Assembly (NCBI GenBank): GCA_964432675.1
Contig: CAYSOG010000003.1
Location: 14,368 to 78,367, forward strand
Direction of reading: 5' to 3'
Length of the DNA stretch: 64,000 nt
Origin: an uncultured Gammaproteobacteria bacterium
Lineage (GTDB): Bacteria; Patescibacteriota; Microgenomatia; CAYSOG01
The notes beneath the pieces were generated by a model that ran no database searches, had not been told where the DNA came from, and saw only the letters and a list, made by a program, of their open reading frames with translations. Within the stretch, counting starts at the first letter, position 1. The number at the start of each line of letters is the position of its first letter. Both the position numbers and the translations under genes were made by a program. This document shows, in pieces, positions 13,754 through 45,928 of the stretch.

Positions 13754-14965
13754 TTAGTTGCGGTTTTGGCGAAGAAAGGTCGGGATATCAAACTCATCGT
13801 CATCTATATTGCCATTACCATTACTGCCGGTATTTTGGGCACCAACGTCAGCCCCGCTATTGATATTGGCCGGTGGAAAAGGATCATTACTTGTGGGTTG
13901 TATTGTTTCTACCTGCGTTGTTTGCGAGGAAGGCGTAAACACTGGCTGGGTCGGGTTTGGTGAGATTGGTGTCGGTGTACTAGGTTCACGCCATTGGCCT
14001 AAGCGTTGCCTTGTTTCATCAAAGCCAGTTGCAACGACGGTAATTTTTACCTGATCTACCATATTTTCGTCAATTGTCGCACCAAAAATAATATTCGCAT
14101 CAGGATCGGCCGCTTGCTGGATAACCCTAGCCGCTTCATCGACTTCGGTCATCGTTAAGTCATTACCGCCAATAATATTAAAGAGTATGCCACGTGCCCC
14201 TTCAATTGAGATTTCCAAAAGCGGTGAAGCAATGGCTGTTCGGGCTGCCGTTTGCGCCCGATTTTCGCCTGTCCCAGTGCCAATACCCATTAACGCAGAT
14301 CCAGCTTCATGCATAATGGCCTTCACATCGGCAAAGTCAACGTTAATCAACCCGGGCATAACGATAAGGTCTGAAATACCTTGCACACCCTGACCTAGCA
14401 CGGAATCAGCCACTCTAAAAGCATCGATGAGAGTCATTTTACGGTCAACGACATCGAGCAATCGTTGGTTCGGTATAACAATGAGCGTATCAACTTTGTC
14501 TTTGAGGTTTTCTATACCATCTTCGGCAGCGAGCATTCTTCGAGTGCCTTCAAATCCGAACGGCTTGGTAACAACACCAACAGTTAATGCCCCGACATCT
14601 TTGGCTATTTTTGCAACGACAGGTGTGGCACCTGTTCCTGTGCCGCCACCCATACCACATGTTAGAAAAACCATGTCGGCACCAGTTAGCATACTTTGGA
14701 TTTTCTCAGCCGATTCCTCTGCTGCTTGTTTGCCGACTTCAGGATCACCACCGGAACCGAGGCCGCGGGTAAAATTTTCACCAATTTGAATTTTTTCAGG
14801 AGCCTGTGAAGTAAGTAAAGCTTGGGCATCAGTGTTTATAGCAATAAATTCAACACCTTGGATATTCTGAAGTTGGATCATGGAGTTTAACGCATTGCCA
14901 CCACCACCGCCTATACCGATAACACGGATTTTTGCAAAACGAGCAATATCTGGTTTGATCAACAT
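13754..14965 (-). CDS. ftsZ: cell division GTPase FtsZ
   Basis: Tubulin signature GGGTGTG, T7 loop NxDFAD, a Pro/Thr-rich linker and a conserved C-terminal peptide (DIPTFLRQ). Confidence 0.95.
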
Positions 14966-15677: not shown

Positions 15678-17006
15678 TCAAGGAAGAAGTGATTTGATGA
15701 GGTCGGTGATTTTTTTGATGATACCACCCGGGGAAAATGGGATGGATTTGAAGTTGACTGTGGGGAATGGCCGACCTGCGTGTTCTTCTGCTTCTTGGCG
15801 GGCGGCATAAAGTATCAGACCAATTGAAGTAGAATAAGCAGGATGCATAATTTCATCGATTAGGCCCGAGACACCTTGCGGTGTACCAAGCCTAACTGGC
15901 ATTGCCAATACAGACTTACATGATTCCACAATACCAATAGTATCTGCTCCACCACCGGTTAAAACAATGCCCGATGGCGTTAACCCTCCTAGGCCAGATC
16001 GTTTGACTTCATTCAATACTACTCGAAAAATTTCGTTTAAACGCAACTTGATAATACCGTCGACTAATGTTTTCCTTGAAACTTTCGTTAGACCTTCAGC
16101 TTGTACGCCAAGCGCCGCTAAGTCAATTTCATCTTCACGTTTTCTTTTTTCAGCCAGTGACTCTCGTGTCATTTTGGTTGTATCTTCGGCTTCCTCTTGC
16201 GGATATGTTACTAATTTGGGTTGCCGAGATAATGCAATCTTGATTTGTTCTGCCGTTTCTAAGCTCACTCGAAGCCCTATTGCCATGTCGTTGGTAACGT
16301 TCTTCGCCCCAATTGGCAAAACCACAGAATGCGCTAGGGCACTTTCAACATACATACTCAGTTCGGTAGCGCCACCGCCTAAATCAACCAGTATAACTCC
16401 AAGTTCCTTTTCCGTATCTGACAATACGGCCTGGGCACTTGCAAGACCGCTAAAGACAAGACCTTCTACGTCAACGCCAACTTCTGACATTACTTTAACT
16501 AAGTTTCTTAAGGCGGTTGTCGAACCGGTAATAATATGCGTTTCAACTTCGAGTCTAATACCGGTCATGCCGACTGGATCTTTAATGCCTTCCTGGCCAT
16601 CAACAGTAAATTGTCGTGGTAAGACATGGATGATTTCCCTTGAAGACGGTAAGGAAACTGCCCTGGCCGCCTCTAATACTCGGGCAACATCACTTTCAGT
16701 TATTTCAGCTTCAGGGTCTGCTACTGCCACAACACCGCGGGAATTTTGTGACTGGATTTGGGTCCCGGAAACTGAAACGAAAGCACGCTCAACAGAATAC
16801 CCTGCCATGCGTTCTGCAGCTTCAAGGCTTTCGGTGATGGCAAGAACTGTTTCTTCAATATCAACAACCTGGCCTTTCCTCAGCCCTCGTGAAGTAACTG
16901 ACGAAGAACCAATAATATTGATCCTACCGTCTTCCATAATACTGGCAATAAGGGTGGTAATTTTCGAGGAGCCAACGTCAATACCTGTTATATAACGATC
17001 CTTCAT
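15678..17006 (-). CDS. ftsA: cell division protein FtsA
   Basis: Actin/HSP70 fold motifs (ITGIDVGSSKIT; VDLGGGAT; GIVLTGGGA) and a C-terminal amphipathic tail. Confidence 0.9.
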   Translation of the reverse strand: MKDRYITGIDVGSSKITTLIASIMEDGRINIIGSSSVTSRGLRKGQVVDIEETVLAITESLEAAERMAGYSVERAFVSVSGTQIQSQNSRGVVAVADPEAEITESDVARVLEAARAVSLPSSREIIHVLPRQFTVDGQEGIKDPVGMTGIRLEVETHIITGSTTALRNLVKVMSEVGVDVEGLVFSGLASAQAVLSDTEKELGVILVDLGGGATELSMYVESALAHSVVLPIGAKNVTNDMAIGLRVSLETAEQIKIALSRQPKLVTYPQEEAEDTTKMTRESLAEKRKREDEIDLAALGVQAEGLTKVSRKTLVDGIIKLRLNEIFRVVLNEVKRSGLGGLTPSGIVLTGGGADTIGIVESCKSVLAMPVRLGTPQGVSGLIDEIMHPAYSTSIGLILYAARQEAEEHAGRPFPTVNFKSIPFSPGGIIKKITDLIKSLLP

Positions 17007-17112: not shown

Positions 17113-18120
17113 TTAATTTCTAATAATCATTATGGTCGGTTTGTTAAAGCGAACATCGATTTTGCCGATCTTCTTCTTATCTATTTTAGAGCTAGCTAAA
17201 ATGATTTGTAAAGCATCAACTTGTTGTTTGGCCGGCTTTTTTGATGAAAATACAACCAAAATACCATCATCGGTTGTGCCTTCGAAGCTCTGGCCGGGAA
17301 TATTCTGTATCGAAGGTAACTGATTATTAAAATTGTCAAATTCCCTCATTTTAAACGCTTTATGCTCACTTTCAGTAATAATGTTAAGGGCTGTCTGAAT
17401 ATAGGCATCGGTTAATTTGGTACCAAGTACTATGTTTTCTATAGAAAGGTAAAAGACCGTTGGTGCTGATAATGCCTGTAACTGTGCGCTCGTTGTGCTT
17501 GGATTAGCATTATAGAATGGATCGCCACTTTCAATACGGGCAAAGGCGACAGCATGGCTATCAATGTAATACTGATCATATTGCATCTTGGTAATTGTTG
17601 CAGAAACCGTTGCCGTTACCGTTGCATTTGGTGTCTCTTGAGCCTGGTCCGTTGTCGTTTGCTGCCTTACAATAATAAGCTGTGCTACAGCTTGCCGTTT
17701 ATCAACACTAACCTTCAGTGTAGACGGAAATTGGCGACTAATAACCAAATGGTCAGCCTGGGGATATTTTTTGGCAAGTTGTTTTGCAAGTGAATTAGTT
17801 GAGAGGAACAGCATATTCTTGCCTTTTTGCGCATTCAGGTCATTAACAAAAGCATCGGAGGTTGGAATACCCTCGATAACTACTTTCTCAACCGTAAAAA
17901 ATTGGAGATGAATAATACCAAAAAGAAGTAAAGTTAATCCGCCCAATAGAATAACTGATATTATTATTTTGCTGAATTTACCTTGTTTTGGCCGTTGGCG
18001 CGAAAATGCCGATCCGCTGCTGTCCCGGTTAGGTGTATCCTTTTTTGGCCATAGGCTTTTACTCGAACGTTTTTTAATTTTATAGCCGTAATTGGGTGCT
18101 TTCGTGTCTGAAATTGGCAT
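17113..18120 (-). CDS. ftsQ: FtsQ/DivIB-like cell division protein (basic N-terminal tail, one TM, POTRA-like domain)
   Basis: Position between murG and ftsA; a single TM segment (IISVILLGGLTLLLFGII); VEKVVIEGIPT... is POTRA-like. Confidence 0.6.
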   Translation of the reverse strand: MPISDTKAPNYGYKIKKRSSKSLWPKKDTPNRDSSGSAFSRQRPKQGKFSKIIISVILLGGLTLLLFGIIHLQFFTVEKVVIEGIPTSDAFVNDLNAQKGKNMLFLSTNSLAKQLAKKYPQADHLVISRQFPSTLKVSVDKRQAVAQLIIVRQQTTTDQAQETPNATVTATVSATITKMQYDQYYIDSHAVAFARIESGDPFYNANPSTTSAQLQALSAPTVFYLSIENIVLGTKLTDAYIQTALNIITESEHKAFKMREFDNFNNQLPSIQNIPGQSFEGTTDDGILVVFSSKKPAKQQVDALQIILASSKIDKKKIGKIDVRFNKPTIMIIRN

Positions 18121-18133: not shown

Positions 18134-19264
18134 TTATGATGCTACAAGAGAGCGAATTTGGGTTGCAATATTTTCCGCTGCGTCAAGCTTAATAAGCTGT
18201 TTGGCCTGGCCAGCATTTTTTTGGTAATCATCATATTTTGCAACAATTGCCGTAATCGTCTGCATTAGCCGCTTGGTAAAATCATTACCCTGCAAAACAA
18301 TTTCGGCAGTACCTGCATTTTTTAATAGCGTTGCGTTTTCATATTGCTCATTTTTTTGCGCCCAAGGTAATGGAACGAGAATTGCCGTTTTTCCCAGTGC
18401 TGCAAGTTCACAAATTGTATTAGCGCCCGAGCGTGAAATAACCAGGCTCGCTTTTGCAAGTACTGCCCCAATGTCGCTAGAATGAACATACTCTATTGGC
18501 AGGTATCTTGGCTTAAGCTCACTAGATAAGGCTTGGATCGTATCATTTGCCTTTTGGTAATCATTATGTGCACTTTTTCCTGTTTGATGGAGAATTGCAA
18601 ATTTCATTAGTAAATCTGGTAATAAGCCAAAAATAGCTTGGTTGATGGCATGCGAGCCTTGATTGCCACCGGTAATATAGATGAGTGGTAATGCACAACG
18701 GTGTAAAAATTCCTTAATTTCACCATCTGCTGCGTTGCTTGCAAATATTTCCGGACGAATAGGATTTCCGGTTAAAATAGTCTTTTGGGCTGGGAAGTAC
18801 CGGCGGGAATTTTCCCATGAAATAGCCACAATAGTTGCAAACAAACTATTTATTTTGTTTGCAAGACCAGCGTGAACTGATTGCTCATGAGTCAAAATAG
18901 GAACTCGATACACCCACGCAGCAATGACCACAGGAACTGATAAATAACCACCGAAGGAAACAACAACCCGTGGCTTGATTCTGCGCAGCAAGAAAAATGC
19001 TTGGACAAAGCCGATCGGAATTTTTAAGAGGCTTGGAATTGTGTGGATCGTAAAAGCACGCTGTAATCGCCCTGTAGTTAAGAAATACACGGGTAGCCCC
19101 ATTTTCGCAAATTGGACTGATTCCTGTGATGGTGATTTATCTCCTTCCGTTGCATGTCTACGGGAAATAACAGCAAGTGATATATCAGGATCTTCCTGTA
19201 AGACATTGATCGTTGCCAAGAGCGGTGACATATGGCCGCCAATAAGTAATACCGTCTTCTTCAT
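18134..19264 (-). CDS. murG: UDP-GlcNAc:lipid I N-acetylglucosaminyltransferase MurG
   Basis: GT28 motifs LLIGGHMSPLLA, THEQSVHAGLANK and a C-terminal GGS/AxE region. Confidence 0.85.
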   Translation of the reverse strand: MKKTVLLIGGHMSPLLATINVLQEDPDISLAVISRRHATEGDKSPSQESVQFAKMGLPVYFLTTGRLQRAFTIHTIPSLLKIPIGFVQAFFLLRRIKPRVVVSFGGYLSVPVVIAAWVYRVPILTHEQSVHAGLANKINSLFATIVAISWENSRRYFPAQKTILTGNPIRPEIFASNAADGEIKEFLHRCALPLIYITGGNQGSHAINQAIFGLLPDLLMKFAILHQTGKSAHNDYQKANDTIQALSSELKPRYLPIEYVHSSDIGAVLAKASLVISRSGANTICELAALGKTAILVPLPWAQKNEQYENATLLKNAGTAEIVLQGNDFTKRLMQTITAIVAKYDDYQKNAGQAKQLIKLDAAENIATQIRSLVAS

Positions 19265-19308: not shown

Positions 19309-20487
19309 TTACCGTTTGGTGTATCTTGATAGGTTAAGTAACAAACCTGCGGCGAATAAAACGGTTACTAACGATGAGCTCCCAAACGATATAAACGGCA
19401 ACGGTACACCAGTGAGTGGAAATAAAGCAACCATTGAACCCATATTAATAAGTGTCTGGAAGCCAAGCCAAACGGTTAAGCCAATAGCCAATAATTGCCC
19501 ATAATGGTCGGGGATGCGTCTGGCAATCGTAAAACTGCGCCACAGCAAGAGCACGAAGACACAAACTACGACCAAAGCGCCAACAAAGCCAAGTTCCCCG
19601 GCAATGACAGCAAATATGGAATCAGAGTTTGCTTCTGGCAAATAACCGTACTTCTGGCTTGAGTTACCTAAGCCAACACCGAACAGCCCGCCTGACCCTA
19701 AGGTTAACAGTACTTGCGAGATGTGGTAAGAACTGCCTTGCGGGTCAATCTGTGGGTTCAAAAACGTTGTTAACCGCTGAAATCTGTATGGTTCCAGTAA
19801 AACGAGGGCGATAAGGCCAAAGGCACCAATTGGCAAAAGCACTAGAAATTGATAAATTGGCGCACCTGAAATAAAGTAAAGGGCGACAATGGTCGAAACA
19901 ATGATCATGGCTGTCCCCAAATCAGGTTCGAGCATGACAAGGATTAATACCACAAGTGCTATCCCACCCACGGTTAGCAAAGAACGGGGTGATAAATTGT
20001 CTCTAGTTTTGGTAAACCACGCCGCTAGGTAAATAATAAGGGCAGGCTTCACAATTTCCGCCGGCTGCAGCGTAAAGCTGCGCATGAAAGGAATAAGATG
20101 CGACAAATTAATCCATCTTCGAGCACCCAAGGCATGGACGCCAACTCCGGGTATCAGAACGGCAATGAGTAATAGCAGTGCTCCTGCTAAAATAATTGCA
20201 GATAGTTTATAAAAAGCCTTAATGTTTAACTTATACGCAATTGTACCAGCAATGAAACCTAAAATAATCCCAATGAATTGTTGCTTTGCAAAGTAGTATT
20301 TATCACCGAACGTATGGAAGCCTTCATATGAGGATACGTCGGCTATCATTAACAGCCCAAAAAGTGTGAGACTAATAATAAGCCCAAACAACAGCATATC
20401 AGGTGCATGAAAACTTTTTTGCGTTTGCTCCTTACTAATCTGCTGGGCACTTTTGCGCGGCTTTTTCTGCAACGGCATTCGAGGCAT
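19309..20487 (-). CDS. ftsW: SEDS-family protein FtsW (dcw-cluster copy)
   Basis: SEDS motifs (GSGGLFGVGLGNSSQKYGYLPEANSDSIFAVIAGELGFVG; FISFGSSSL) and its position between murD and murG. Confidence 0.8.
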   Translation of the reverse strand: MPRMPLQKKPRKSAQQISKEQTQKSFHAPDMLLFGLIISLTLFGLLMIADVSSYEGFHTFGDKYYFAKQQFIGIILGFIAGTIAYKLNIKAFYKLSAIILAGALLLLIAVLIPGVGVHALGARRWINLSHLIPFMRSFTLQPAEIVKPALIIYLAAWFTKTRDNLSPRSLLTVGGIALVVLILVMLEPDLGTAMIIVSTIVALYFISGAPIYQFLVLLPIGAFGLIALVLLEPYRFQRLTTFLNPQIDPQGSSYHISQVLLTLGSGGLFGVGLGNSSQKYGYLPEANSDSIFAVIAGELGFVGALVVVCVFVLLLWRSFTIARRIPDHYGQLLAIGLTVWLGFQTLINMGSMVALFPLTGVPLPFISFGSSSLVTVLFAAGLLLNLSRYTKR

Positions 20488-20568: not shown

Positions 20569-20847
20569 TTATTCGGATTGGTCATTATCAGTGCCAGATA
20601 TTCGACTTTTAAGAAAATCTTCCGATGCTCTTACCAATCTTTCCATCATCTTACTCCGTTCACCTTCTGTCATTTTGTCTAAGCTCCGCGGATCAACGTA
20701 CACAGGAATAGCATGGTCTACTTTTACTCCTTTAATTTGATCAGGCTGGATCAGAATAGTCGGAGGCGTATCTTTTGTGAGCATCCAAATATCAGGCCCG
20801 CTGCCATCTGGGTTTGGAATATACTTGTGACCTTTTCTTTCATCCAT
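20569..20847 (-). CDS. hypothetical protein (92 aa)
   Basis: An ORF in the ftsW-murD gap with no recognisable motif. Confidence 0.35.
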   Translation of the reverse strand: MDERKGHKYIPNPDGSGPDIWMLTKDTPPTILIQPDQIKGVKVDHAIPVYVDPRSLDKMTEGERSKMMERLVRASEDFLKSRISGTDNDQSE

Positions 20848-20984
20848 ACATTATAAGGTAGATACTGTTGTAGTTTTATTATACATCGCTTGTCTAACTC
20901 GGTAACTTACTTTATTGCCTTGAGAGAATAGAGCAAGTAAAATGCCGGGGATGGTATTATCCCCGGCTAAAGGCCTTGTGTTGC

Positions 20985-21305
20985 CTATAAATGTTCCAAT
21001 ATATATTCACGCAGCGATTGGCGAAAACGGCGCATAGCACTGAATAGACTAGCTTCCAAACTTGTGCCTTCAATTATCCAGTAGGAAAATAATACAAGTA
21101 CCCAAATCGCAAAGCCGATATATCCCAATAATGGTAATCGAAATACAGCCTCCATAAGATAAAGGCTAGCAACAAGTAAAGCTACAATACTACGGAAAAG
21201 ATATATTATCCTACGCTCTATACTTTCTGATATTGCCGCGATCCAAAGCGTCCAATAGCCGCTACAAGTGACAATTATAATCAAAAGTGCCGATACTAAA
21301 TCCAT
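20985..21305 (-). CDS. hypothetical small membrane protein (3 TM)
   Basis: Three hydrophobic helices; lies in the ftsW-murD gap. Confidence 0.4.
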   Translation of the reverse strand: MDLVSALLIIIVTCSGYWTLWIAAISESIERRIIYLFRSIVALLVASLYLMEAVFRLPLLGYIGFAIWVLVLFSYWIIEGTSLEASLFSAMRRFRQSLREYILEHL

Positions 21306-21418: not shown

Positions 21419-22834
21419 TTATTTTTCATGCAGATGAGCAATAGCTTCCTTAAACTGCAATGCCCTTTCATGGTAATCTTTAAAAAGATTAAAGCTTGGC
21501 GCAGCTGGAGACAGCAAACAAATCTTTCCCTTCGATGTATGTTCACTAGCCACTTCAACCGCGCCTGCCATGGAGTCTTGGTTGAAAAATCTTATTTTTG
21601 AAGCATGAAGTTTGAAACCTGGAACTTTTTTGATTGCGTCTTCAATCTTCCGGCCAGTTGTCGGCAGTAAGATGACAGTTTTGATCTCACTTTCGACAAT
21701 GCGCTTCGCCAAACTAGTATAATCCAGTCCCCTATCGTAACCGCCAACAATGATTGTTTCAACATCTGGTGCCAGCGCATCAATTGCCGCAATTGCTGAT
21801 TCTGGTGTCGTCGAAATTGAGTCATTATAATAGGTCACACCGTTTACATCACCAACTAATTCAAGCCGATCTTCTAAGCCTTTAAACGCTGCTATCGCGC
21901 TGACAATTTTTTCAGTTGGGATTTCATAAAGTTTGCCGATGATAATTGCTGGCAAAACATTTTGGATGTTGTGGTCGCCTAATAGACTAATTTCGTCCCG
22001 GCCCATTATATTTTCCACATTATTATGGAAGCGGAACATTATATCTTTCCCTTGTATAAAACAGCAATTTGGACCAATATCGGCGTTAAAAGGAAATCGT
22101 TTTGCTTTGCTGCGTTGGGCAATCTCATATGGAATTGGATAATTTGCATTATATAAAAAGTAGTCATTTGGTGATTGGTGGCTTGCTATATTTTCCTTCG
22201 CTTTCACATAGTCTTCAAAGTCATCGTAGTAGTCTAAATGTTCGGGTGTGATATTTTGGAGCACTGCAATATGTGGACTTTTGGTAAGCGTTTGTAATTG
22301 ATGGCTTGAAAGTTCCATTACCACAAGTGTTTTATCATTAATTTTAGGGAGCTGCTCTAAGGCTGAAATACCAATATTACCGCAAAGTATTGTATTGGCG
22401 TAATCTGACTTAATGACTTCATAAATGACAGTTGTTGTTGTGCTTTTGCCTTTCGTCCCAGTAACACCGATAATTGTTCCAGGACAAGAATCGAAGAATA
22501 GTTGGGTGGGAGAAGAAACTATCGCGTTACCAATGTACGGCTTTATTACCTTTAATGGTATGCCGGCGGTTTTGATAATGACGTCATAATTTTTCAGGCT
22601 GGACAAGTAATCCTTATTAAAAAACGTATCGAGGTTTGCGTCGTTCTTTATCATAGATTGGACATCCGTACTAAGCATGTCCAAGGTAGCTTGGTCCGCG
22701 ACAGCCAGTTGCTGCGTCCCAAACTTCTGCCGCAAAAATGTATACGCTGCAAAGCCTTCCCGACCTAACCCAACAATAATAATTTTCTTGTCTTTCAATT
22801 CCATAGTAGCAACCCACCAGACCTGTCCATTCAC
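21419..22834 (-). CDS. murD: UDP-N-acetylmuramoylalanine--D-glutamate ligase MurD (possibly MurD2-type, see findings)
   Basis: Rossmann N-domain (KIIIVGLGREGFAAYTFL), Mur ligase P-loop GVTGTKGKSTTTTVI and a Mur ligase C-domain. The likely start is the internal MELKDKK. Confidence 0.85.
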   Translation of the reverse strand: MNGQVWWVATMELKDKKIIIVGLGREGFAAYTFLRQKFGTQQLAVADQATLDMLSTDVQSMIKNDANLDTFFNKDYLSSLKNYDVIIKTAGIPLKVIKPYIGNAIVSSPTQLFFDSCPGTIIGVTGTKGKSTTTTVIYEVIKSDYANTILCGNIGISALEQLPKINDKTLVVMELSSHQLQTLTKSPHIAVLQNITPEHLDYYDDFEDYVKAKENIASHQSPNDYFLYNANYPIPYEIAQRSKAKRFPFNADIGPNCCFIQGKDIMFRFHNNVENIMGRDEISLLGDHNIQNVLPAIIIGKLYEIPTEKIVSAIAAFKGLEDRLELVGDVNGVTYYNDSISTTPESAIAAIDALAPDVETIIVGGYDRGLDYTSLAKRIVESEIKTVILLPTTGRKIEDAIKKVPGFKLHASKIRFFNQDSMAGAVEVASEHTSKGKICLLSPAAPSFNLFKDYHERALQFKEAIAHLHEK

Positions 22835-22851
22835 CTAAAAGGTGAGGGGAA

Positions 22852-24237
22852 CTAGACTATAGCAATTTGCTTTTGCAACAGTTGCTTATATTCACCTGAA
22901 AGCAAATTTTCGTCGTTCCAATTTGTTAATACTTTATTAGTCTCAGTTTTGATATTTGGATATTTTGACAAAATTTCGTCTGTAAAGTACTGTAATAAGA
23001 CTTGGTCTCCCTCTGTTTTCTGGGTGGATAAATATAGTGCCGCACGCACTTCTTCATATGTCCCAACGCATTCAAATGGCTTATGCTCGGCTACACCGAC
23101 TAATTCCTTTAGCAATGGTAAAAGTGTTTCAGCTTTAAACAGGTCTTGCCCAAAAATCTCCTTAAGGTCGTTACCTTCCATAAACGGGTAAAGAATAAGA
23201 TATACAAATAAACATTTAGCACACTTACCACACCAAGTGTTACTCTTTTGCCCAACATTGCAGCTCTTAAATAATGAAAAATAATCCTTAAACTCTGAGA
23301 AAATCTGAGCAATCTGTAATTCGTATGCTGGACGCAGAAAGCTAAAATAATTGACATGTGATGCTAAATAGTTCCTTGCATAATCATGAAACCTTTTTTC
23401 AAAAACAAACGATTTAGAATATTGGTGGTTAATAGCCTGCCCTTGGTAGACAATATCAGCTTCATTAGCTGAAAATTCGTTTGAAAGCACAATATCCTGG
23501 TAATCGAAAATTACGGCACATAATACAGCGATAAACGCGAGTGAGGCTGAAAATGGCGTGTGGCCATTGAGGTAACCCTGACCATTAAGTTTTAGGAGTG
23601 CTGGGTCGATTTGCCGGTTTATGGTAACCTGTTTTTCACCAAAAAGTTTGGTTGCGATTACGTGGGCAGAAGTAATAGGTGCAAATGTATCCACAACAAG
23701 CCCGGCTACGTGCATATCAGCATTTTTCAGAAGTTTTGCCGTAACAATGGAATCTTTGCCTCCACCAATCGGCACAATAGCACGCTTGGTCAGTTCTCCG
23801 TCAAAAATTTGCTTGTCTTGGTTACCAGATTTGCTTTCAATTCTCACGTTACGAACATGGTCGATTGTAATATCATTTCGGAATATATATTCGCCCATAC
23901 CGTTGAGCAATAAATCCTTCCACCAAGCAATTTGTTCTTCATTTAAAAATCCAGCGTTTATTGTTATAGTTGGCGAAGCAGCGGCTTTCCAATAACTAAA
24001 GCTTTCAATAATACCAATATTGAAGACAAGATTATCGATGACCTTTTTTGGTAAAATCCCAAATCTAGCAGTGTCAACATCTTTTATTGTTATTTTATGC
24101 GAAAAAGTTTTGTCGGGCGGCAATGCAAAATCGTAAGCAATAACTAAATTGCCATCAACCAAATTGTAGTGATAACGATCAAAAATAAACTGCGGATATT
24201 TCTTTGTAATTTCTTGCCACGATGCTTGGTTTCCCAT
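22852..24237 (-). CDS. PP-loop (adenine-nucleotide alpha-hydrolase) ATPase with a C-terminal CxxC pair; candidate MurL-like UDP-MurNAc-L-Ala-L-Glu epimerase
   Basis: PP-loop IVPIGGGKDSIVTAKLL (SGGxDS type); Cys pair CGKCAKC; 461 aa with an extra N-terminal domain; encoded immediately upstream of murD on the same strand inside the dcw cluster. Confidence 0.45.
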   Translation of the reverse strand: MGNQASWQEITKKYPQFIFDRYHYNLVDGNLVIAYDFALPPDKTFSHKITIKDVDTARFGILPKKVIDNLVFNIGIIESFSYWKAAASPTITINAGFLNEEQIAWWKDLLLNGMGEYIFRNDITIDHVRNVRIESKSGNQDKQIFDGELTKRAIVPIGGGKDSIVTAKLLKNADMHVAGLVVDTFAPITSAHVIATKLFGEKQVTINRQIDPALLKLNGQGYLNGHTPFSASLAFIAVLCAVIFDYQDIVLSNEFSANEADIVYQGQAINHQYSKSFVFEKRFHDYARNYLASHVNYFSFLRPAYELQIAQIFSEFKDYFSLFKSCNVGQKSNTWCGKCAKCLFVYLILYPFMEGNDLKEIFGQDLFKAETLLPLLKELVGVAEHKPFECVGTYEEVRAALYLSTQKTEGDQVLLQYFTDEILSKYPNIKTETNKVLTNWNDENLLSGEYKQLLQKQIAIV

Positions 24238-24306: not shown

Positions 24307-25317
24307 TTACTTAGTTATTGCTATGAGCAAACCAATAATAGCCAAAAGCGCACCGGCTAACCAAAAACGCATGACAACTTTCGGTTCTTGCCAGCCGCGC
24401 AGCTGCAAATAAAGATGTAATGGGGATACCGCAAACGCCTTGCGGTGAAAAAAATATTTCGATGCCAACTGTACAAACGATGATGTAACTTCTACAACGA
24501 ACATGCCACCAATAACCGCCAATGGAACGGTTTTGCCGGTTAATAGTCCAACCACAGCAAGTGTTGCACCAAAAGCCAAAGCACCAACGTCGCCAAGCAG
24601 CACTCGGGCTGGATAGATATTAAAGTAAAGAAAAGCTAACAAAGCGCCAATCCAAGCGCCAATGAATGCTGAAAGCGTGGAATCAAGCGACGTACGGGCT
24701 AAAATTAAAAATGCCAGAAGACAAATGATTAATAAGCCTGTCGAAAGGCCATCTAAGCCATCAGTTATATTAACCGCATTCGTAAAAGCGACAATAACAA
24801 ATGCCGCAAAGGGAATAAAGAAAATACCAATATCAATATTACTGAAGTTCCATAGAATATCTATCCGATGAAAGCCTAAAACATAGTAAATATAAGAGGA
24901 AATGAGTAGTGCCAATACGATTTGAATAATGAGTTTATGGCGAAACCGTAAGCCGATAAAACCATGGGTACTTGTATTAAAAAACTTCTTGCTATCGTCA
25001 TAAAAACCTAAAATACCAAATAAAACCATCGTCATTAAGATGATAAAGATTTTTGCATTCCACTTCGCATCTGATACTAAATAACCCAACGAAGGAAGAA
25101 TGAGAAGTACAATGATTAATAAAATACCGCCGCCAACTGGCACACCAGCTTTCCAACCATGCAGCCGGTCAAATATGGGTGTCCGTTCATTGAAAGCATC
25201 CTTCGTTACCTGTTTTTGACGTTGGAATTTAATTCGATACAAAAAATTAATAAACGGCACAAGCGCCAACGATGTGGCTAAGTATGACAGTATGAGTAGC
25301 GTTAAAACTTGTTGCAT
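24307..25317 (-). CDS. mraY: phospho-N-acetylmuramoyl-pentapeptide transferase MraY
   Basis: Ten TM helices; NAVNITDGLDGLSTG and DDxxxF motifs. Confidence 0.9.
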   Translation of the reverse strand: MQQVLTLLILSYLATSLALVPFINFLYRIKFQRQKQVTKDAFNERTPIFDRLHGWKAGVPVGGGILLIIVLLILPSLGYLVSDAKWNAKIFIILMTMVLFGILGFYDDSKKFFNTSTHGFIGLRFRHKLIIQIVLALLISSYIYYVLGFHRIDILWNFSNIDIGIFFIPFAAFVIVAFTNAVNITDGLDGLSTGLLIICLLAFLILARTSLDSTLSAFIGAWIGALLAFLYFNIYPARVLLGDVGALAFGATLAVVGLLTGKTVPLAVIGGMFVVEVTSSFVQLASKYFFHRKAFAVSPLHLYLQLRGWQEPKVVMRFWLAGALLAIIGLLIAITK

Positions 25318-25343: not shown

Positions 25344-26630
25344 TTAGTCGTCAATTTTTTGGATGGATGCGCCAAGGCGAGTTAGCCTTTCTTGAATACG
25401 GGCATAACCACGTTCGATCAGCTCAATATTGGAAATAACACTTGTCCCCTTTGCACACAAAGCCGCAAGTACTAAGGCCATACCGGCTCGAATGTCAGGC
25501 GAATCCAAATCACGCCCATATAATTGCGCTGGGCCAGATACCACTACTCGATGCGGATCACATAAAATAATATGCGAGCCCATGGTAATCAATTTATCAA
25601 CAAAAAACATTCGCCCTTCGAACATCCAGTCGCGCACAAGCGTCGTGCCACGAGCCTGTGTTGCAAGGACAATGACAAGGCTAATTAAATCAGTCGGAAA
25701 TCCTGGCCAAGGGTATGCATCAACCTTTTCTACTGCTAATAAATCTTTTGGAATAATTTTAAGTGAACCGTGGACGTTGCTGGTTGAAGCATTCGTTGGT
25801 GTAAAGGTATACTGCAAACCAAAACGTTCAAGGACTAACAAAATCATATCTAAGTAATCAATCCGAGCATTGCGGATTGTAATAGCACTATTTGTGACTC
25901 CTGCTAGTATTGCCCAAGTACCTACTTCGATATGGTCAGATTCTATGGTGTGGTCAAATCCCGTTAAGTGTTCCTTGCCAGTAATGGTTATCGTATTGCT
26001 ACCAATACCATGGATTAAAACTCCCATTTTTTGCAACACATGGCATAATTCTTGGACATGAGGCTCAGCTGCAGCATGCTTAATAATGATTGTTTTCGGC
26101 ATTGTTGCTGCGATGAGCAAGACATTTTCAGTCGCTGTAACCGACGAATCGTCAAGAAAAATAGTAGCAGCAGCCATTTTCTTTCTTTGGAGAGCGGTCT
26201 TACTGTCTTGTTGGGAAACTTTAACCCCAAGGTCAGAAAATGCCAAAAGATGGGTAGTAATTGGCCGCTTCCCGATAACATCGCCGCCCGGATGATGTGT
26301 TGAGACCTTCCCTGCTCTACCAACCATCGCCCCCATTAAGAGCACCGATGCACGTAACTTTCGAACAAGTTCTTTTGGCAAGTCGGTTTCAACGATTTTT
26401 GGTGTCTGTAGTTTCAGTGTTGTTTCATCGATAGACGTTACCGTTGTGCCAATATGTCCTAAAATTTCGAGCATGTAAGCGACGTCCAAAATTTTTGGTA
26501 CATTTTTAAGTACGCATGGTTCATCGGTTAACAATGTCGCAGCAAGGATAGGCAATACCGCATTCTTATTCGCTTGAGCGAAGATATCACCAGATAACCG
26601 TTTATTACCTTCAATAACGAATTTGCTCAT
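25344..26630 (-). CDS. murA: UDP-N-acetylglucosamine 1-carboxyvinyltransferase MurA
   Basis: EPSP-synthase-like fold; KNAVLPILAATLL near the N-terminus; 428 aa. Confidence 0.9.
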   Translation of the reverse strand: MSKFVIEGNKRLSGDIFAQANKNAVLPILAATLLTDEPCVLKNVPKILDVAYMLEILGHIGTTVTSIDETTLKLQTPKIVETDLPKELVRKLRASVLLMGAMVGRAGKVSTHHPGGDVIGKRPITTHLLAFSDLGVKVSQQDSKTALQRKKMAAATIFLDDSSVTATENVLLIAATMPKTIIIKHAAAEPHVQELCHVLQKMGVLIHGIGSNTITITGKEHLTGFDHTIESDHIEVGTWAILAGVTNSAITIRNARIDYLDMILLVLERFGLQYTFTPTNASTSNVHGSLKIIPKDLLAVEKVDAYPWPGFPTDLISLVIVLATQARGTTLVRDWMFEGRMFFVDKLITMGSHIILCDPHRVVVSGPAQLYGRDLDSPDIRAGMALVLAALCAKGTSVISNIELIERGYARIQERLTRLGASIQKIDD

Positions 26631-26714: not shown

Positions 26715-27710
26715 TCACCATTCACCGGCCAAAACAATTTCTTCTTTCAAGTCGACACTAAATTTATCTTTAATTGTCTTTTTTTCCATAGACAACAAAT
26801 CACGGACATCCTTTGCCGTAGCACCGCCTAAATTCACGATAAAATTAGCGTGTTTTTTTGAAATAATCGCTTGTCCTACTTGCTTGCCCTTCATACCGGC
26901 TTGGTCAAGTAAGTAGCCTGCGGACTGCGTAAAATTCGGTGTGCCCAGCCGAAACGCATCGGCTTTGGGGATATTTTGGAATGCACAACCGCACGAAGGT
27001 AATTCGAGCGGCTGTTCATCATGGCGTTTCTGGACCGACTCCTTTGCTGCGCGGTCCCAAAGTAGTTGTTTATCACCCGGTTTTAATTTAAAAATGACGC
27101 TCAGTACTGTTTCATGTGTTTTTTGCAAAATACTAAAATCATAGCCAAACTGGAAATAAAAACGCTCAACTTCCTTAACATTTCCCTCGTTATCAAGAAT
27201 TTTTGCACTATGGACTAAATTGCCGATGAACTCGTCATTATATTGGCGAAAATGGGAATTATTCCAAATTGCACCTCCAACTGTCCCCGGCAAACCTAAG
27301 AATACTTCCAAACCTTCAAGGCCTTCCTCAATAGTAAAACGGACTAAATAATTAACGGCAATGCCGCTATCTGTTTCAACATACATTTCATCCATGCGCC
27401 GTTCTTTACCACTAAAGGTACCCTTAAATCCTGCTATTTTAATATTTTTTGTTTTGTTCCGGATAACAACCCCACGAATCCCCTTATCAGCAACTAAAAT
27501 ATTACTGCCAGCGCCAAAGACAAAAAAAGGTAAGCTAACTTGCTTTGCCGCTTTCACAGCCCGAGCAAGATCTTCTGTAGTTTCCGCTTCAAAATACAAA
27601 TCTGCCGGTCCACCAATTTTTATTGTCGTATGTTGCGACATTGGCTCGTTTTCTTTCACCCGTTGCGAACCGACAATCTCCTTAAATTTTTCTGCTTTTT
27701 GTGTGTCCAT
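26715..27710 (-). CDS. murB: UDP-N-acetylenolpyruvoylglucosamine reductase MurB
   Basis: FAD-binding PCMH domain (IKIGGPADLYFEA...FVFGAGSNILV) and a MurB C-terminal domain. Confidence 0.85.
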   Translation of the reverse strand: MDTQKAEKFKEIVGSQRVKENEPMSQHTTIKIGGPADLYFEAETTEDLARAVKAAKQVSLPFFVFGAGSNILVADKGIRGVVIRNKTKNIKIAGFKGTFSGKERRMDEMYVETDSGIAVNYLVRFTIEEGLEGLEVFLGLPGTVGGAIWNNSHFRQYNDEFIGNLVHSAKILDNEGNVKEVERFYFQFGYDFSILQKTHETVLSVIFKLKPGDKQLLWDRAAKESVQKRHDEQPLELPSCGCAFQNIPKADAFRLGTPNFTQSAGYLLDQAGMKGKQVGQAIISKKHANFIVNLGGATAKDVRDLLSMEKKTIKDKFSVDLKEEIVLAGEW

Positions 27711-27734: not shown

Positions 27735-29024
27735 TTACTGAGCAGGCGCTTGTGAGAAATCTTTTAGTAAGTCATTTGACAGTTTGGTGATATCACCGGC
27801 CCCCATGCATACAACAACACTGTTAGATTTTACGCTTTCTGACAGTATTTTTTCAATATTTATAAGGCTGCCTCCATAGAAAACGCTTTGCTTTGCCACA
27901 GCTGCAACAATATCTGAAGCATTTACCTCACCGGTATCATGCTCACGAGAGGCAAAAATATCAGCCACGATAAGGTGATCTGCTGGAACTTCACGTAGCG
28001 CTTGGACAAAATCATTAAATAGAACCTTTGTCCGGGTGAACATATGCGGTTGGAATACAAGCCAAAATGTCTTATTGGGATATGCAGCCCGGGCCGCATT
28101 CGCGGTTGCTATAATTTCGGAAGGATGGTGGCCATAATCATCAACTATCGTAATACCATTTACTTCGCCCTTTCTTTCAAGCCGTCTTGCAAGGCCAGTA
28201 AAAGATTCTAATGCATTTTGCGCTATAGCATTATCCACGCCCACTGCCTTTACGACGGCAAATGCGAGGGATGCGTTAGCAATATTAAACTCCCCGGGTA
28301 TTGTTAAATGAAGTGGTTGGGGTGCTATTCTTTCGATCTTTGGTGCATCAAAATGTTGCGTAATGGTATTGCTCAGTAAAAGCGTTCCCTGTGGTTTTAA
28401 GTTTTGGACAAAATCGGCAAAGGCTTTTTCATATGCTTTGGGTGTTGGAAAAAATTCAGGATGATCATATTCAATATTAGTAACAGCAATGATATCAGGG
28501 TGATAATATAGAAAGTTATTATTATACTCATCAGCTTCAATAACATAGTATTTCCCCTTACCAACTCGGTAGTTTGAATGCCATTGTGGCACAACTGCAC
28601 CCAATTGCACTGTCGGATCAAGTCCTGCCGAAACTAAAATATTAGCCACCATTGCAGTCGTCGTTGACTTACCATGGCTACCACAAATGGCAATAACGAA
28701 TTTATCCTTTTGAAGATAACCAGCAGAAAACTCCTGCCATGATATGATGGGAATTCGTTCTTTGCGCGCGGTTATCAGTTCTGGGTTGCTATTATCAAAG
28801 GCTAATATTGCCGGGGAAACAACAAGAAGGTCAATACCATAAGCATGGTCTTTGTTATGCATTGGTTGAACAGTAATTCCCGATGCCGTAAGTTCATGTT
28901 GGTATTCTGATGTGTGCGCCGCATCGCAACCTGATACCAAAAAACCCTGAGCTTTCGCAATTGCCGCAGTCGCCGAACAACCGCTACCCAAGATTCCCAT
29001 AAAATGGATTTTCTTTGTTTCCAT
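27735..29024 (-). CDS. murC: UDP-N-acetylmuramate--L-alanine ligase MurC
   Basis: MurC N-terminus IHFMGILGSGCSATA; P-loop GSHGKSTTTAM; Mur ligase middle and C domains. Confidence 0.85.
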   Translation of the reverse strand: METKKIHFMGILGSGCSATAAIAKAQGFLVSGCDAAHTSEYQHELTASGITVQPMHNKDHAYGIDLLVVSPAILAFDNSNPELITARKERIPIISWQEFSAGYLQKDKFVIAICGSHGKSTTTAMVANILVSAGLDPTVQLGAVVPQWHSNYRVGKGKYYVIEADEYNNNFLYYHPDIIAVTNIEYDHPEFFPTPKAYEKAFADFVQNLKPQGTLLLSNTITQHFDAPKIERIAPQPLHLTIPGEFNIANASLAFAVVKAVGVDNAIAQNALESFTGLARRLERKGEVNGITIVDDYGHHPSEIIATANAARAAYPNKTFWLVFQPHMFTRTKVLFNDFVQALREVPADHLIVADIFASREHDTGEVNASDIVAAVAKQSVFYGGSLINIEKILSESVKSNSVVVCMGAGDITKLSNDLLKDFSQAPAQ

Positions 29025-29026
29025 AG

Positions 29027-29674
29027 TTAGAGCATCGCTTCAACTTTCAAAACGGCCTCTGCAAAACTTTTTGTCGCGATTGTTGGTTTTTCAGCAGTAA
29101 GCGAGGCCGCGTCTTCTTGTGTTTCGATTAAAACTGTTATGATAGTCGGGTCAACTGCTGAAAAGGCAGACAAAAAAGACATATGGTCGTCGAATACAAA
29201 TTTTTTGCTCATCGAAAGGTTAGCCAAAAATGAAGGAATGTTTGCTGTTTTGTCTTTATAAACGTAGAATTTATCCTTATCTAATAGCTTTTTATCTAAA
29301 AGTGGCTGCATTTTAGCAAATTGCATCTTTTCTTCACCTTGGGAATAAATATAGACTTCTCCTAGCGTTGTAAGCTTGCGTAATCCGTCTTCAACTCCAG
29401 GATAATAGTATGTTGTAAACGGCAGCCGGTAAATACCAGCTACAATTGCCTCGATTATACCAGCTTTGTTAGCACTCGCAGACAATAACACTTCCATAAC
29501 GCTTTGCCAGGTATAGAAGCCTTCCTTCTCTAATATTTCCCTTATAACCGCACGCAATTGCTCTAACGTAACAGGACTATATGCGTTGACTAGCGCAACT
29601 ATCGCGACCCGAAGCGCTGTTGTATCAATGATTGTATGGTCTATATCAATAATGAAAGCATTATTTTGTGCCAT
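29027..29674 (-). CDS. HAD-superfamily hydrolase
   Basis: ORF 29027..29755; the likely start is the internal ATG at 29674 (MAQNNAFIIDIDHTIIDT), giving the DxDxT motif I. Confidence 0.55.
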   Translation of the reverse strand: MAQNNAFIIDIDHTIIDTTALRVAIVALVNAYSPVTLEQLRAVIREILEKEGFYTWQSVMEVLLSASANKAGIIEAIVAGIYRLPFTTYYYPGVEDGLRKLTTLGEVYIYSQGEEKMQFAKMQPLLDKKLLDKDKFYVYKDKTANIPSFLANLSMSKKFVFDDHMSFLSAFSAVDPTIITVLIETQEDAASLTAEKPTIATKSFAEAVLKVEAML

Positions 29675-30422
29675 GTTGTGTTTCCTTAGTCGACTTTTCG
29701 GCGGCGGCAAGATCGTCTTGCGTTGTAACGCCAAACCATTGGTTCGTCTTGCCAAAATCGATCGCCTGTACAGTTTCTCCTTGCTGATTTGCTAACTCGA
29801 TAAGGTCGGTTAAATAATATTCTTGTGTGACTGATGAAGGCGTTATCTTGGTTATATTGGCAGCAAACCACTGTTTTTGGAAGATGTATAGCCCAGGATT
29901 AACTTCGTTAATAAGCCGTTGTTCATCATTTGCATCTTTTTCCTCGATAATTGCTTGCACATTGCCTACCTTGTTCCGAATAATTCGACCTTTTCCCAAT
30001 GGATTAGTAACTTGCATGGTCGCCATTGTAATAACTGCATTACCATTGTTGTGAACCTCGATAAGCGCTTGATAAGTCGTTTGATCTACAAACATCGCAT
30101 TATCTGCATAAAGGATAATAATATGCTCAATAGCTTTGCCTAGCTTTGGCAGTGCATCGGAAGCTGCTGCTGCAGTACCATAGTGCTCCCCCTGGATAAC
30201 AAAGTCGGTGCTTGAGAATTTTCTGACTGCCGCTTCTACAAGTTCGGCTTTGTATTTGATAACCGTAATGACTTGCCCGAGATTGAGCAATGCTAACGTG
30301 TTGAGAGAATAATAGAGCAGCGGCTTACCATTTATTTCATGCAATACTTTTGGTAGTTCCGACTGCATTCGGGTCCCTTTTCCTGCGGCAAGTACAATGG
30401 CAGCGTAGTTATTTTTACCCAT
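29661..30422 (-). CDS. sugar-1-phosphate nucleotidyltransferase (GlmU N-terminal-domain type, no acetyltransferase domain)
   Basis: LAAGKGTRM signature, a GT-A-like fold and a length of about 250 aa. Confidence 0.7.
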   Translation of the reverse strand: MGKNNYAAIVLAAGKGTRMQSELPKVLHEINGKPLLYYSLNTLALLNLGQVITVIKYKAELVEAAVRKFSSTDFVIQGEHYGTAAAASDALPKLGKAIEHIIILYADNAMFVDQTTYQALIEVHNNGNAVITMATMQVTNPLGKGRIIRNKVGNVQAIIEEKDANDEQRLINEVNPGLYIFQKQWFAANITKITPSSVTQEYYLTDLIELANQQGETVQAIDFGKTNQWFGVTTQDDLAAAEKSTKETQHGTK

Positions 30423-31650: not shown

Positions 31651-31730
31651 TAGCTAAATTATAGCGTACATAATAAGTGATAGCGAGTAAAGCTGAAGAA
31701 AAATGTAATGAAAAAATGCGCAATTTAGTG

Positions 31731-31780
31731 CTTTAAATAAAAAGGGGCGGGCCATCGAGATAATCACGACAGCCCGCCTT
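31731..31780 (-). terminator. rho-independent terminator read on the minus strand (GGCGGGC stem, TTTTTATTT tract)
   Basis: Stem formed by 31744-31752 and 31772-31778, with a T-tract on the minus strand. It lies between the GC-rich basic-ORF segment and murE. Confidence 0.5.
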
Positions 31781-32775: not shown

Positions 32776-32828
32776 GTTACATACCCGTTTTAATGCCGCC
32801 CTCCTGCTGCAGCAAGCTTAAACATGTA

Positions 32829-45915: not shown

Positions 45916-45928
45916 GTCAGTATCGTTT

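What the first reader, a model, noticed from the sequence alone, without database searches (positions are those of the whole stretch)
21419..24237. PP-loop ATPase with CxxC pair encoded next to murD inside the dcw cluster: candidate MurL-type epimerase (MurD2/MurL D-Glu pathway)
The 461-aa ORF at 22852-24237 has an SGGxDS-type PP-loop (PIGGGKDS), which marks AMP-forming adenine-nucleotide alpha-hydrolases. It also has a C-terminal CGKCAKC pair and an extra N-terminal domain. It lies immediately upstream of murD on the same strand, between mraY and murD. A PP-loop enzyme has no role in the canonical dcw pathway. In Xanthomonas, MurD2 ligates L-Glu and the ATP-dependent, AMP-forming MurL then epimerises UDP-MurNAc-L-Ala-L-Glu to the D-Glu form, and the MurL gene sits beside murD. 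The gene context here fits that arrangement and would imply D-Glu incorporation without glutamate racemase.
Basis: inference. Interest (0 to 1): 0.6.

Follow-up and report, generated by a model that had tools for sequence, protein, structure and literature searches.

The report
MurL–MurD2 D-glutamate pathway in CPR bacterium
A candidate-phyla-radiation bacterium carries, inside its cell-wall gene cluster, the known but rarely recognised two-enzyme route (MurD2 plus the ATP-dependent epimerase MurL) that builds the D-glutamate of peptidoglycan from L-glutamate, and related genomes show this route is far more widespread than the literature says.

Summary

- **MurL homology.** The 461-aa ORF (22852-24237, minus strand) matches NCBIfam's MurL model end to end (E 1.3e-84). 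It matches no tRNA-modifying PP-loop family.
- **Fold.** Its AlphaFold model (pLDDT 94) has a QueC-like PP-loop ATP-pyrophosphatase core. PIGGGKDS sits at the canonical position. An invariant four-cysteine motif of QueC type follows, and the N-terminal domain has no PDB relative.
- **MurD2 signature.** The adjacent MurD (21419-22834) carries all four published MurD2 residues: Glu, Arg, Pro and Phe at E. coli Asp182, Lys348, Ala414 and Leu416. It also lacks Lys319.
- **Conservation elsewhere.** In 69 of 80 related genome loci a MurD of this type directly follows murL. In Patescibacteria the order is mraY-murL-murD-ftsW, as here. In 33 of 150 family representatives MurL is fused to MurD, MurE or MurB.
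- **Source organism.** It belongs to the Microgenomates group, close to Daviesbacteria.

This is a new member of a known kind. The reviews I could read list only a few genera and say MurL lacks known domains; the breadth of the family and its PP-loop fold go beyond that. Absence of murI could not be tested from 64 kb, and enzyme activity is inferred.

The parts
22852..24237 (-). [quoted passage not shown]
   Evidence: NF041275 E 1.3e-84, full length. More than 8000 homologous clusters. AF2 pLDDT 94.1.
23818..24237 (-). MurL N-terminal domain (aa 1-140), specific to the family. Proposed substrate-binding domain (inference).
   Evidence: Confident model (pLDDT 91.9). No convincing PDB relative, TM <= 0.39. 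Invariant E78, Y82, K84 and N121.
23188..23802 (-). MurL PP-loop ATP-pyrophosphatase (adenine nucleotide alpha-hydrolase) core, aa 146-350
   Evidence: Foldseek: QueC 3bl5 prob 1.00, TM-target 0.64; Cap9 9nto TM-target 0.69; also TtuA, ThiI, MnmA. TtuA sequence hit at E 1.1e-5.
23749..23772 (-). PP-loop motif PIGGGKDS (aa 156-163)
   Evidence: Aligns with SGGKDS of TtuA and SGGQDS of QueC.
23212..23262 (-). Four-cysteine motif C326-x9-C336-x2-C339-x2-C342, a QueC-type putative Zn site
   Evidence: All four Cys invariant in 77 sequences. hhalign pairs WCGKCAKC with GCGHCAAC of E. coli QueC.
23068..23070 (-). Invariant Cys390 (KPFECVGT). Candidate general acid/base for epimerisation (inference).
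   Evidence: Invariant in 77 of 77 sequences.
21419..22834 (-). [quoted passage not shown]
   Evidence: TIGR01087 321 bits. Signature residues E198, I340, R368, P446 and F448. Only MurD in the window.
22241..22243 (-). MurD2 Glu198 (E. coli Asp182; X. oryzae Glu197)
   Evidence: PMC8788868.
21731..21733 (-). MurD2 Arg368 (E. coli Lys348; X. oryzae Arg358)
   Evidence: PMC8788868.
24307..25317 (-). mraY, upstream neighbour in the conserved mraY-murL-murD-ftsW order
   Evidence: TIGR00445 195.6 bits. Same order in 32 Patescibacteria loci.
19309..20487 (-). ftsW, downstream member of the conserved order
   Evidence: PF01098 316 bits.

Best explanation
The two genes are a MurL/MurD2 module embedded at the murD position of the dcw cluster of a Microgenomates-group (Daviesbacteria-like) Patescibacteria genome. 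MurD2 ligates L-glutamate, not D-glutamate, to UDP-MurNAc-L-Ala using ATP. [quoted passage not shown] MurL has three parts: a family-specific N-terminal domain; a QueC-like PP-loop ATP-pyrophosphatase core followed by a four-Cys (probably zinc) motif; and a C-terminal helical region. The PP-loop fold fits the published proposal that MurL adenylates the alpha-carboxylate of the terminal L-Glu, as QueC adenylates its carboxylate substrate. Adenylation would acidify the C-alpha proton. Invariant residues (candidates Cys390, His226, His271, Lys275) would then invert the centre, and hydrolysis would release AMP and the D-product. Shown here: homology, fold, motifs, MurD2 specificity residues, conserved synteny and gene fusions. 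Inferred: the catalytic activity in this organism, the roles of individual residues, zinc binding, and that this is the cell's only D-Glu route.
For: MurL homology: NF041275 at E 1.3e-84 over the full length, and no other family. This score is as high as or higher than those of homologues from phyla where the pathway is documented. PP-loop fold: AF2 pLDDT 94 and pTM 0.93. Foldseek's top hits are QueC, Cap9, TtuA, ThiI and MnmA. The profile hits the TtuA PP-loop at E 1.1e-5. hhalign to QueC pairs both the PP-loop and the Cys motif. Invariant G160, D162, C326, C336, C339, C342, C390, H226 and H271 in 77 sequences. MurD2: E, R, P and F at the four published positions, and Ile at Lys319. Among 70 MurL-linked MurDs, Glu occurs in 67, Arg in 70 of 70, and Lys319 is lost in all 70 that cover it (Ile or Leu in 69, Gln in 1), whereas PDB MurDs have Asp or Thr at 182 and keep Lys319. 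Linkage: murD follows murL in 69 of 80 loci, and 32 show mraY-murL-murD-ftsW. Fusions occur in L041, L073 and L074 and in 33 of 150 representatives, all to MurD, MurE or MurB. Biochemistry of characterised homologues (ATP to AMP, unidirectional L to D, both genes needed to complement a D-Glu auxotroph): PMC8788868, PMC5808125.
Confidence: 0.88

Rival explanations
1. The ORF is a MurL-family PP-loop enzyme that performs a different adenylation-dependent modification of the stem-peptide glutamate, for example alpha-carboxyl amidation to iso-glutamine in the manner of PP-loop amidotransferases. The neighbouring MurD would then use D-Glu supplied by a MurI encoded elsewhere.
For: PP-loop enzymes nearest in fold (QueC, NAD synthetase-like) adenylate a carboxylate and then add ammonia (together with established knowledge of these families). 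murI absence is untested. Sequence similarity to the characterised clade is moderate (284 bits).
Against: The neighbouring MurD carries the experimentally defined L-Glu specificity residues and lacks Lys319, which makes an epimerase necessary. The linkage and fusions are specifically with this MurD2 type across phyla. No glutaminase or ammonia-donor partner lies adjacent. Homologues at comparable divergence include lineages of the phyla where epimerase activity was confirmed in vitro (PMC8788868).
Confidence: 0.05
2. The ORF is a tRNA-modifying or other housekeeping PP-loop enzyme (TilS, TtcA, TtuA, MnmA, ThiI or QueC) that merely happens to lie in the dcw cluster.
For: A PP-loop motif is present, together with Cys motifs reminiscent of TtuA, TtcA and QueC.
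Against: No HMM hit to any of these families at E <= 0.01. Only the nucleotide-binding core aligns structurally, with TM-query of 0.15-0.31, and no THUMP, TilS-substrate or other RNA-binding domain matches. Synteny with murD is conserved in 69 of 80 loci, and fusions are to Mur enzymes only.
Confidence: 0.01
3. The module is functional MurD2/MurL but is an auxiliary or redundant route in this organism, alongside a MurI and canonical MurD pathway encoded outside the window.
For: Only 64 kb of the genome was visible. In non-CPR phyla the murL-murD pair lies outside the dcw cluster, which is compatible with an accessory role there.
Against: Here the MurD2-type gene occupies the canonical murD slot between mraY and ftsW and is the only MurD in an otherwise complete dcw cluster. 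The same arrangement holds in 32 Patescibacteria genomes. These are small genomes with little redundancy (PMC13293708).
Confidence: 0.06

Closest known systems
MurL, UDP-N-acetyl-alpha-D-muramoyl-L-alanyl-L-glutamate epimerase (X. oryzae XOO_1319; NCBIfam NF041275)
   Same: Full-length homology (E 1.3e-84). Similar length: 461 aa against a 447-position model. Encoded next to a MurD2-type ligase.
   Different: Divergent clade: 284 bits against the 700-bit equivalog cut-off. Located inside the dcw cluster of a CPR genome rather than in Xanthomonadales, Alphaproteobacteria or Micromonosporaceae. Activity not assayed.
[quoted passage not shown]
   Same: MurD-family ligase carrying Glu, Arg, Pro and Phe at E. 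coli Asp182, Lys348, Ala414 and Leu416, identical to the published MurD2 residues. Adjacent to murL.
   Different: Occupies the canonical murD slot between mraY and ftsW. Also has Ile in place of Lys319; the state of this position in X. oryzae MurD2 was not available to me.
QueC, 7-cyano-7-deazaguanine synthase (PDB 3bl5; E. coli b0444)
   Same: Best structural match to the MurL core. Both have a PP-loop followed by a C-x8/9-C-x2-C-x2-C motif. QueC also adenylates a carboxylate (from established knowledge).
   Different: No QueC HMM match. MurL has additional N- and C-terminal domains of about 140 and 110 residues. The substrate and outcome differ: epimerisation and hydrolysis rather than amide or nitrile formation.
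TtuA/TtcA, TilS, MnmA and ThiI tRNA-modifying PP-loop enzymes
   Same: Shared PP-loop nucleotide-binding core. The TtuA PP-loop segment matches at E 1.1e-5.
   Different: No family-level HMM hits. No RNA-binding domains. Different genomic context.
MurI glutamate racemase with canonical MurD
   Same: Same net physiological outcome: D-Glu at position 2 of the stem peptide.
   Different: MurI is not homologous. It is cofactor-independent, reversible and acts on the free amino acid. No MurI was found in the window.

Membership tests
[quoted passage not shown] | Significant full-length sequence similarity to characterised (Xanthomonadales) MurL | tested here: met
   NF041275 E 1.3e-84, 284 bits, residues 16-440 against profile positions 9-430 of 447; sole hit.
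[quoted passage not shown] | Score above NCBIfam's curated equivalog cut-off (700 bits) | tested here: not met
   284 bits. Homologues from Alphaproteobacteria, Actinomycetota, Bacteroidota, Acidobacteriota, Clostridia and other CPR score 239-274 bits. The cut-off therefore delimits Xanthomonadales, not the function.
[quoted passage not shown] | Encoded beside, and functionally coupled to, a MurD2-type ligase | tested here: met
   An intergenic gap of 17-47 nt to murD on the same strand. Conserved in 69 of 80 loci. Fusions to MurD are frequent.
[quoted passage not shown] | [quoted passage not shown] | not testable with these tools
   Requires an enzyme assay. The PP-loop fold is consistent with AMP and PPi formation.
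MurD2 (L-Glu-adding MurD) | MurD-family Mur ligase | tested here: met
   TIGR01087 321.3 bits against a cut-off of 211.95; Mur_ligase_M and Mur_ligase_C domains.
MurD2 (L-Glu-adding MurD) | Glu at E. coli Asp182 and Arg at E. coli Lys348, the residues whose double swap reverses stereospecificity | tested here: met
   Glu198 and Arg368; PMC8788868.
MurD2 (L-Glu-adding MurD) | Pro and Phe at E. coli Ala414 and Leu416 | tested here: met
   Pro446 and Phe448.
MurD2 (L-Glu-adding MurD) | Genome lacks glutamate racemase and D-amino-acid aminotransferase | tested here: inconclusive
   None in the 64-kb window by Pfam on all ORFs of 120 aa or more or by phmmer with E. coli MurI on six-frame ORFs. The rest of the genome is not available.
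MurD2 (L-Glu-adding MurD) | Ligates L-Glu, not D-Glu, in vitro | not testable with these tools
   Requires an enzyme assay.
tRNA-modifying PP-loop enzymes (TilS, TtcA/TtuA, MnmA, ThiI) | Match to the family HMM and presence of tRNA-binding domains | tested here: not met
   No NCBIfam or Pfam hit at E <= 0.01. Structural alignment is limited to the PP-loop core.
QueC | Match to QueC family HMMs | tested here: not met
   No hit. The resemblance is limited to the fold and the Cys motif.
PP-loop ATP pyrophosphatase superfamily (adenine nucleotide alpha-hydrolases) | SGGxDS-type loop after the first strand of a Rossmann-like fold | tested here: met
   GGGKDS at 158-163, between strand 150-156 and helix 161-172. 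Foldseek and profile hits to PP-loop enzymes. G160 and D162 invariant.

The most novel reading that the evidence does not exclude
MurD2/MurL, rather than glutamate racemase, is the standard D-glutamate route of much of the Patescibacteria/CPR radiation, hard-wired into the dcw operon as mraY-murL-murD2-ftsW. It also occurs as a mobile two-gene or fused module in Bacteroidota, Acidobacteriota, Clostridia, Rokubacteria and other groups. MurL, the only known ATP-consuming epimerase, is a QueC-like PP-loop/zinc enzyme, which would settle its adenylation mechanism. Both points contradict the published view that the pathway is confined to a few genera and that MurL has no recognisable domains.
Probability: 0.5. 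Interest if true: 0.6.

Novelty: new member of a known kind. Interest (0 to 1): 0.45.

Why it matters
For this locus the result is a confident functional annotation. NCBI calls the close homologues it has named 'hypothetical protein', and the adjacent ligase would be annotated as a D-glutamate ligase, although its specificity residues indicate L-glutamate.

More broadly, three points follow:

- **Physiology of CPR bacteria.** These bacteria cannot make most amino acids and depend on hosts. The module lets them build D-Glu-containing peptidoglycan directly from scavenged L-Glu, without a free D-Glu pool or a racemase.
- **Antibiotic targeting.** MurD2/MurL has been promoted as a narrow-spectrum target for Xanthomonas and Stenotrophomonas because it is found in few genera. 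The module occurs in at least 595 species-representative genomes from many phyla, which weakens that premise.
- **Mechanism.** Recognising a PP-loop/QueC-like core with an invariant four-Cys motif and invariant Cys and His residues gives directly testable mutants for an enzyme whose mechanism the reviews call unclear.

Tried and rejected
**Searches that found nothing or could not run**
- PDB sequence search with the single protein found no relative.
- The local Pfam copy gave only a sub-threshold DUF6395 hit. The precomputed PF26298 and PF26299 domains seen on all homologues are not in the local library, so I could not read their definitions.
I inferred the taxon from IleRS instead.
- Fold search of the isolated N-terminal domain gave only weak RNase-H-like topological similarities (TM <= 0.39, rmsd 8-9 A). 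I rejected these as uninformative.
- Literature searches for MurL or MurD2 together with CPR, Patescibacteria or D-glutamate found no prior report.
- The promoter and terminator scan around the pair was not above shuffle expectation for promoters, so I drew no operon-boundary claim from it.

**Considered and rejected**
- A tRNA-modifying PP-loop enzyme.
- QueC membership.
- The long stop-free frames in L027 and L029 as fusions. They are high-GC upstream extensions, not fusions.

**Not attempted**
- Retrieval of an experimentally characterised MurL or MurD2 sequence. I judged that it would not change the conclusion enough to justify the last large protein search.
Full report
**Observation.** The window's minus strand carries an almost complete division and cell-wall (dcw) cluster. 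In order it reads:

- mraZ (36584-36982)
- rsmH (35713-36645)
- a class-B PBP (33644-35329)
- murE (30415-31650)
- a GlmU-N-like uridyltransferase (29661-30422)
- an unknown ORF (29027-29755)
- murC (27735-29024)
- murB (26715-27710)
- murA (25344-26630)
- mraY (24307-25317)
- the 461-aa ORF (22852-24237)
- murD (21419-22834)
- two small unknown ORFs
- ftsW (19309-20487)
- murG (18134-19264)
- an FtsQ-like gene (17113-18120)
- ftsA (15678-17006)
- ftsZ (13754-14965)

- PIGGGKDS lies at residues 156-163.
- CGKCAKC lies at residues 336-342.
- There is an extra N-terminal domain.
- The ORF sits between mraY and murD on the same strand.

**What the 461-aa ORF is.**

[quoted passage not shown] The match has E 1.3e-84 and 284 bits and covers residues 16-440 against profile positions 9-430 of 447.
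- No TilS, TtcA, MnmA, ThiI or QueC model matches at E <= 0.01, and the local Pfam has nothing significant.
- The 700-bit equivalog cut-off is not reached. As a control, I scored MurL homologues from an alphaproteobacterium (Vitreimonas), an actinomycete MAG, Bacteroidota, Acidobacteriota, Clostridia, the cultured Minisyncoccus archaeiphilus and a Beckwithbacteria genome. They gave 239-274 bits, all below the window's protein. The cut-off therefore delimits Xanthomonadales, not the family.
All carry precomputed Pfam domains PF26298 and PF26299, and a few are already named as the epimerase by JGI, while NCBI calls them hypothetical.
- In the exhaustive library of 1.84 billion representatives, the family has 2675 members at E <= 1e-3 and 1202 at E <= 1e-30.

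**Fold and motifs.**

- An AlphaFold2 model built on 41 homologues is highly confident (pLDDT 94.1, pTM 0.93).
- Foldseek against the PDB returns only PP-loop ATP pyrophosphatases at the top: QueC (3bl5, probability 1.00, TM-target 0.64), the QueC-like Cap9 (9nto, 0.69), TtuA, ThiI, MnmA and NAD-synthetase-like proteins. These align to the central part of about 200 residues.
- GGGKDS lies between strand 150-156 and helix 161-172, the canonical PP-loop position.
- At sequence level, the family profile hits the PP-loop segment of TtuA PH0300 (E 1.1e-5).
- A profile alignment to E. coli QueC pairs GGGKDS with SGGQDS and WCGKCAKC with GCGHCAAC. The support is weak (E 0.0014, probability 18%) because the template is a single sequence.
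- MurL has C326-x9-C336-x2-C339-x2-C342, and E. coli QueC has C-x8-C-x2-C-x2-C. From established knowledge of QueC, this motif binds zinc.
- In 77 MurL sequences from many phyla, these residues are invariant: G160, D162, the four motif cysteines, a fifth Cys390 (KPFECVGT), His226 (LNGHTPF), His271 and Lys275 (INHQYSK), and N-domain residues E78, Y82, K84 and N121.
- The N-terminal domain, modelled alone (pLDDT 91.9), has no convincing PDB relative.
- No solved structure is a sequence relative of the whole protein.

**The neighbouring MurD is of MurD2 type.**

- The 2021 review (PMC8788868) reports that X. oryzae MurD2 has Glu197, Arg358, Pro433 and Phe435 where E. coli MurD has Asp182, Lys348, Ala414 and Leu416. 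It also reports that E197D/R358K switches MurD2 to D-Glu, and that K319T lets E. coli MurD accept L-Glu.
- I aligned the window MurD with E. coli MurD. Literature numbering equals UniProt numbering minus 1, which I checked on Lys115, His183 and Thr321.
- The window MurD has Glu198, Arg368, Pro446 and Phe448, and Ile340 at the Lys319 position.
- Solved canonical MurDs behave differently. Those from E. coli and from entries 7sir and 7sy9 have Asp and Lys at the first two positions. The streptococcal enzyme (3lk7) has Thr and Arg. All of them keep Lys319.
- The window contains only one MurD, plus MurC and MurE.

**Comparative evidence.** Findings in the 80 best loci:

- A MurD-like gene follows murL on the same strand in 69 loci. 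Most of the rest are cut by contig ends.
- Of 70 such MurDs, 67 have Glu at position 182, all 70 have Arg at 348, all 70 that cover the position lack Lys319 (Ile or Leu in 69, Gln in 1), and 67 have Phe or Tyr at 416.
- Two arrangements exist. Patescibacteria show mraY-murL-murD-ftsW(-murG), exactly as in the window (32 loci). Bacteroidota, Acidobacteriota, Rokubacteria, Binatia, Clostridia and others show an isolated murL-murD pair.
- MurL and MurD form one reading frame in L041, L073 and L074.
- Among the 150 best family representatives, 33 are fusions: 29 MurL-MurD, 2 MurD-MurL, 1 MurE-MurL and 1 MurB-MurL. Every fusion partner is a cytoplasmic peptidoglycan-precursor enzyme.

**Organism.** The window's IleRS is 61-65% identical to proteins of Candidatus Daviesbacteria and other Microgenomates-group Patescibacteria. 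The source is an unnamed NCBI contig of 91,864 bp.

**Mechanism.**

- Shown: homology to MurL, a PP-loop fold, a QueC-type Cys motif, MurD2 specificity residues, conserved linkage and fusions.
- Taken from the literature: characterised MurL consumes one ATP, forms AMP, acts only in the L-to-D direction, and needs MurD2 to complement a D-Glu auxotroph (PMC8788868, PMC5808125). [quoted passage not shown]
- Inferred here: the PP-loop core supplies that adenylation chemistry (ATP to acyl-AMP plus PPi, as in QueC). The four Cys bind structural zinc. The N-domain helps bind the UDP-MurNAc-dipeptide. Invariant Cys390, His226, His271 and Lys275 are candidates for proton abstraction and delivery before hydrolysis of the D-adenylate.

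**Limits.**

- No murI (Asp/Glu racemase) or class-IV aminotransferase is present in the window. However, 64 kb cannot show that the genome lacks them, and murF, ddl and alr are also outside the window.
- I could not obtain a characterised MurL or MurD2 sequence for direct alignment.

**Novelty.**

- The module is a known kind, MurL/MurD2 (Feng et al. 2017, as reviewed in PMC8788868), and databases already model the family. The locus is therefore a new member, not a new system.
- The distribution listed in the reviews is Xanthomonadales, three alphaproteobacterial genera and Micromonosporaceae, with low-similarity orthologues in cyanobacteria, a fungus and an amoeba. The distribution seen here is much broader.
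- Searches of the accessible literature found no report of MurL in CPR, nor of its PP-loop fold.

**Verdict.** Confidence is 0.88 that this is a functional MurD2/MurL pair, and interest is 0.45.

Noticed in passing
window 49151-49362 (-), upstream of 47284-49062 (-): A glmS ribozyme (Rfam RF00234, 53.3 bits against a gathering score of 37) precedes a bona fide glmS gene (TIGR01135, 518 bits) in this Microgenomates-like genome.
   Followed up: partly
L041:5944-8265; L073:5932-8718; L074:410-3211; proteins P0241, P0248, P0249, P0251, P0295, P0324 and others: MurL is recurrently fused to peptidoglycan-precursor enzymes: 29 MurL-MurD, 2 MurD-MurL, 1 MurE-MurL (P0249) and 1 MurB-MurL (P0295) among 150 family representatives.
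   Followed up: yes
Loci L016, L027, L030-L034, L038, L047, L050, L052-L081 (non-CPR phyla): Outside Patescibacteria the murL-murD2 pair stands alone, away from mraY and ftsW. Those genomes may therefore carry a second, canonical MurD in their dcw cluster and use the module as an accessory or horizontally acquired route.
   Followed up: partly
window 29661-30422 (-) and 29027-29755 (-): The dcw cluster contains a GlmU-like protein with only the N-terminal uridyltransferase half (253 aa; 217 bits against the TIGR01173 cut-off of 367). By up to 95 nt it overlaps a 242-aa ORF that has no family match. No acetyltransferase half lies adjacent.
   Followed up: no
window 31651-32995: A stretch of about 1.3 kb between murE and the PBP/GNAT genes has no ORF longer than 131 aa. 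It holds a series of short, very basic minus-strand ORFs in different frames, has slightly raised GC (0.45) and gives no Rfam hit. It may be a degraded or frameshifted gene, or non-coding.
   Followed up: no
window 20569-21305 (-): Two small ORFs lie between murD and ftsW: a hydrophobic 106-aa ORF at 20985-21305 and a 92-aa ORF at 20569-20847. Neither has a family match or a counterpart in the 80 related loci. A strong terminator-like hairpin (9 pairs, 7 of them G-C) lies at 20967-20944.
   Followed up: partly
window 22804-22834 (-): The mechanical murD ORF starts at the GTG at 22834, but alignment with other MurDs and a GGTGGG about 10 nt upstream favour the ATG at 22804 (MELKDKK...). The 471-aa version is not in the protein collection.
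   Followed up: partly
window, whole: murF, ddl and alr are absent from the otherwise complete dcw cluster and from the 64-kb window. A second FtsW/RodA-family gene (5394-6479) lies next to ileS.
   Followed up: no
window 42972-61901 (-): A large surface-polysaccharide cluster is present. It includes a sugar transferase, several GT1, GT2 and GT4 glycosyltransferases, a Wzy-like polymerase or ligase, a WcaF-like acetyltransferase, a PMT_2-family glycosyltransferase, and a 717-aa ORF (50317-52470) with no family match.
   Followed up: no
MurD alignment of 70 MurL-linked ligases: None of the 70 MurL-linked MurDs that cover the position keeps Lys319 of E. coli MurD; it is Ile or Leu in 69 and Gln in 1. 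The single K319T mutation was reported to let E. coli MurD accept L-Glu, so loss of this Lys may be a third natural determinant of L-Glu specificity.
   Followed up: partly
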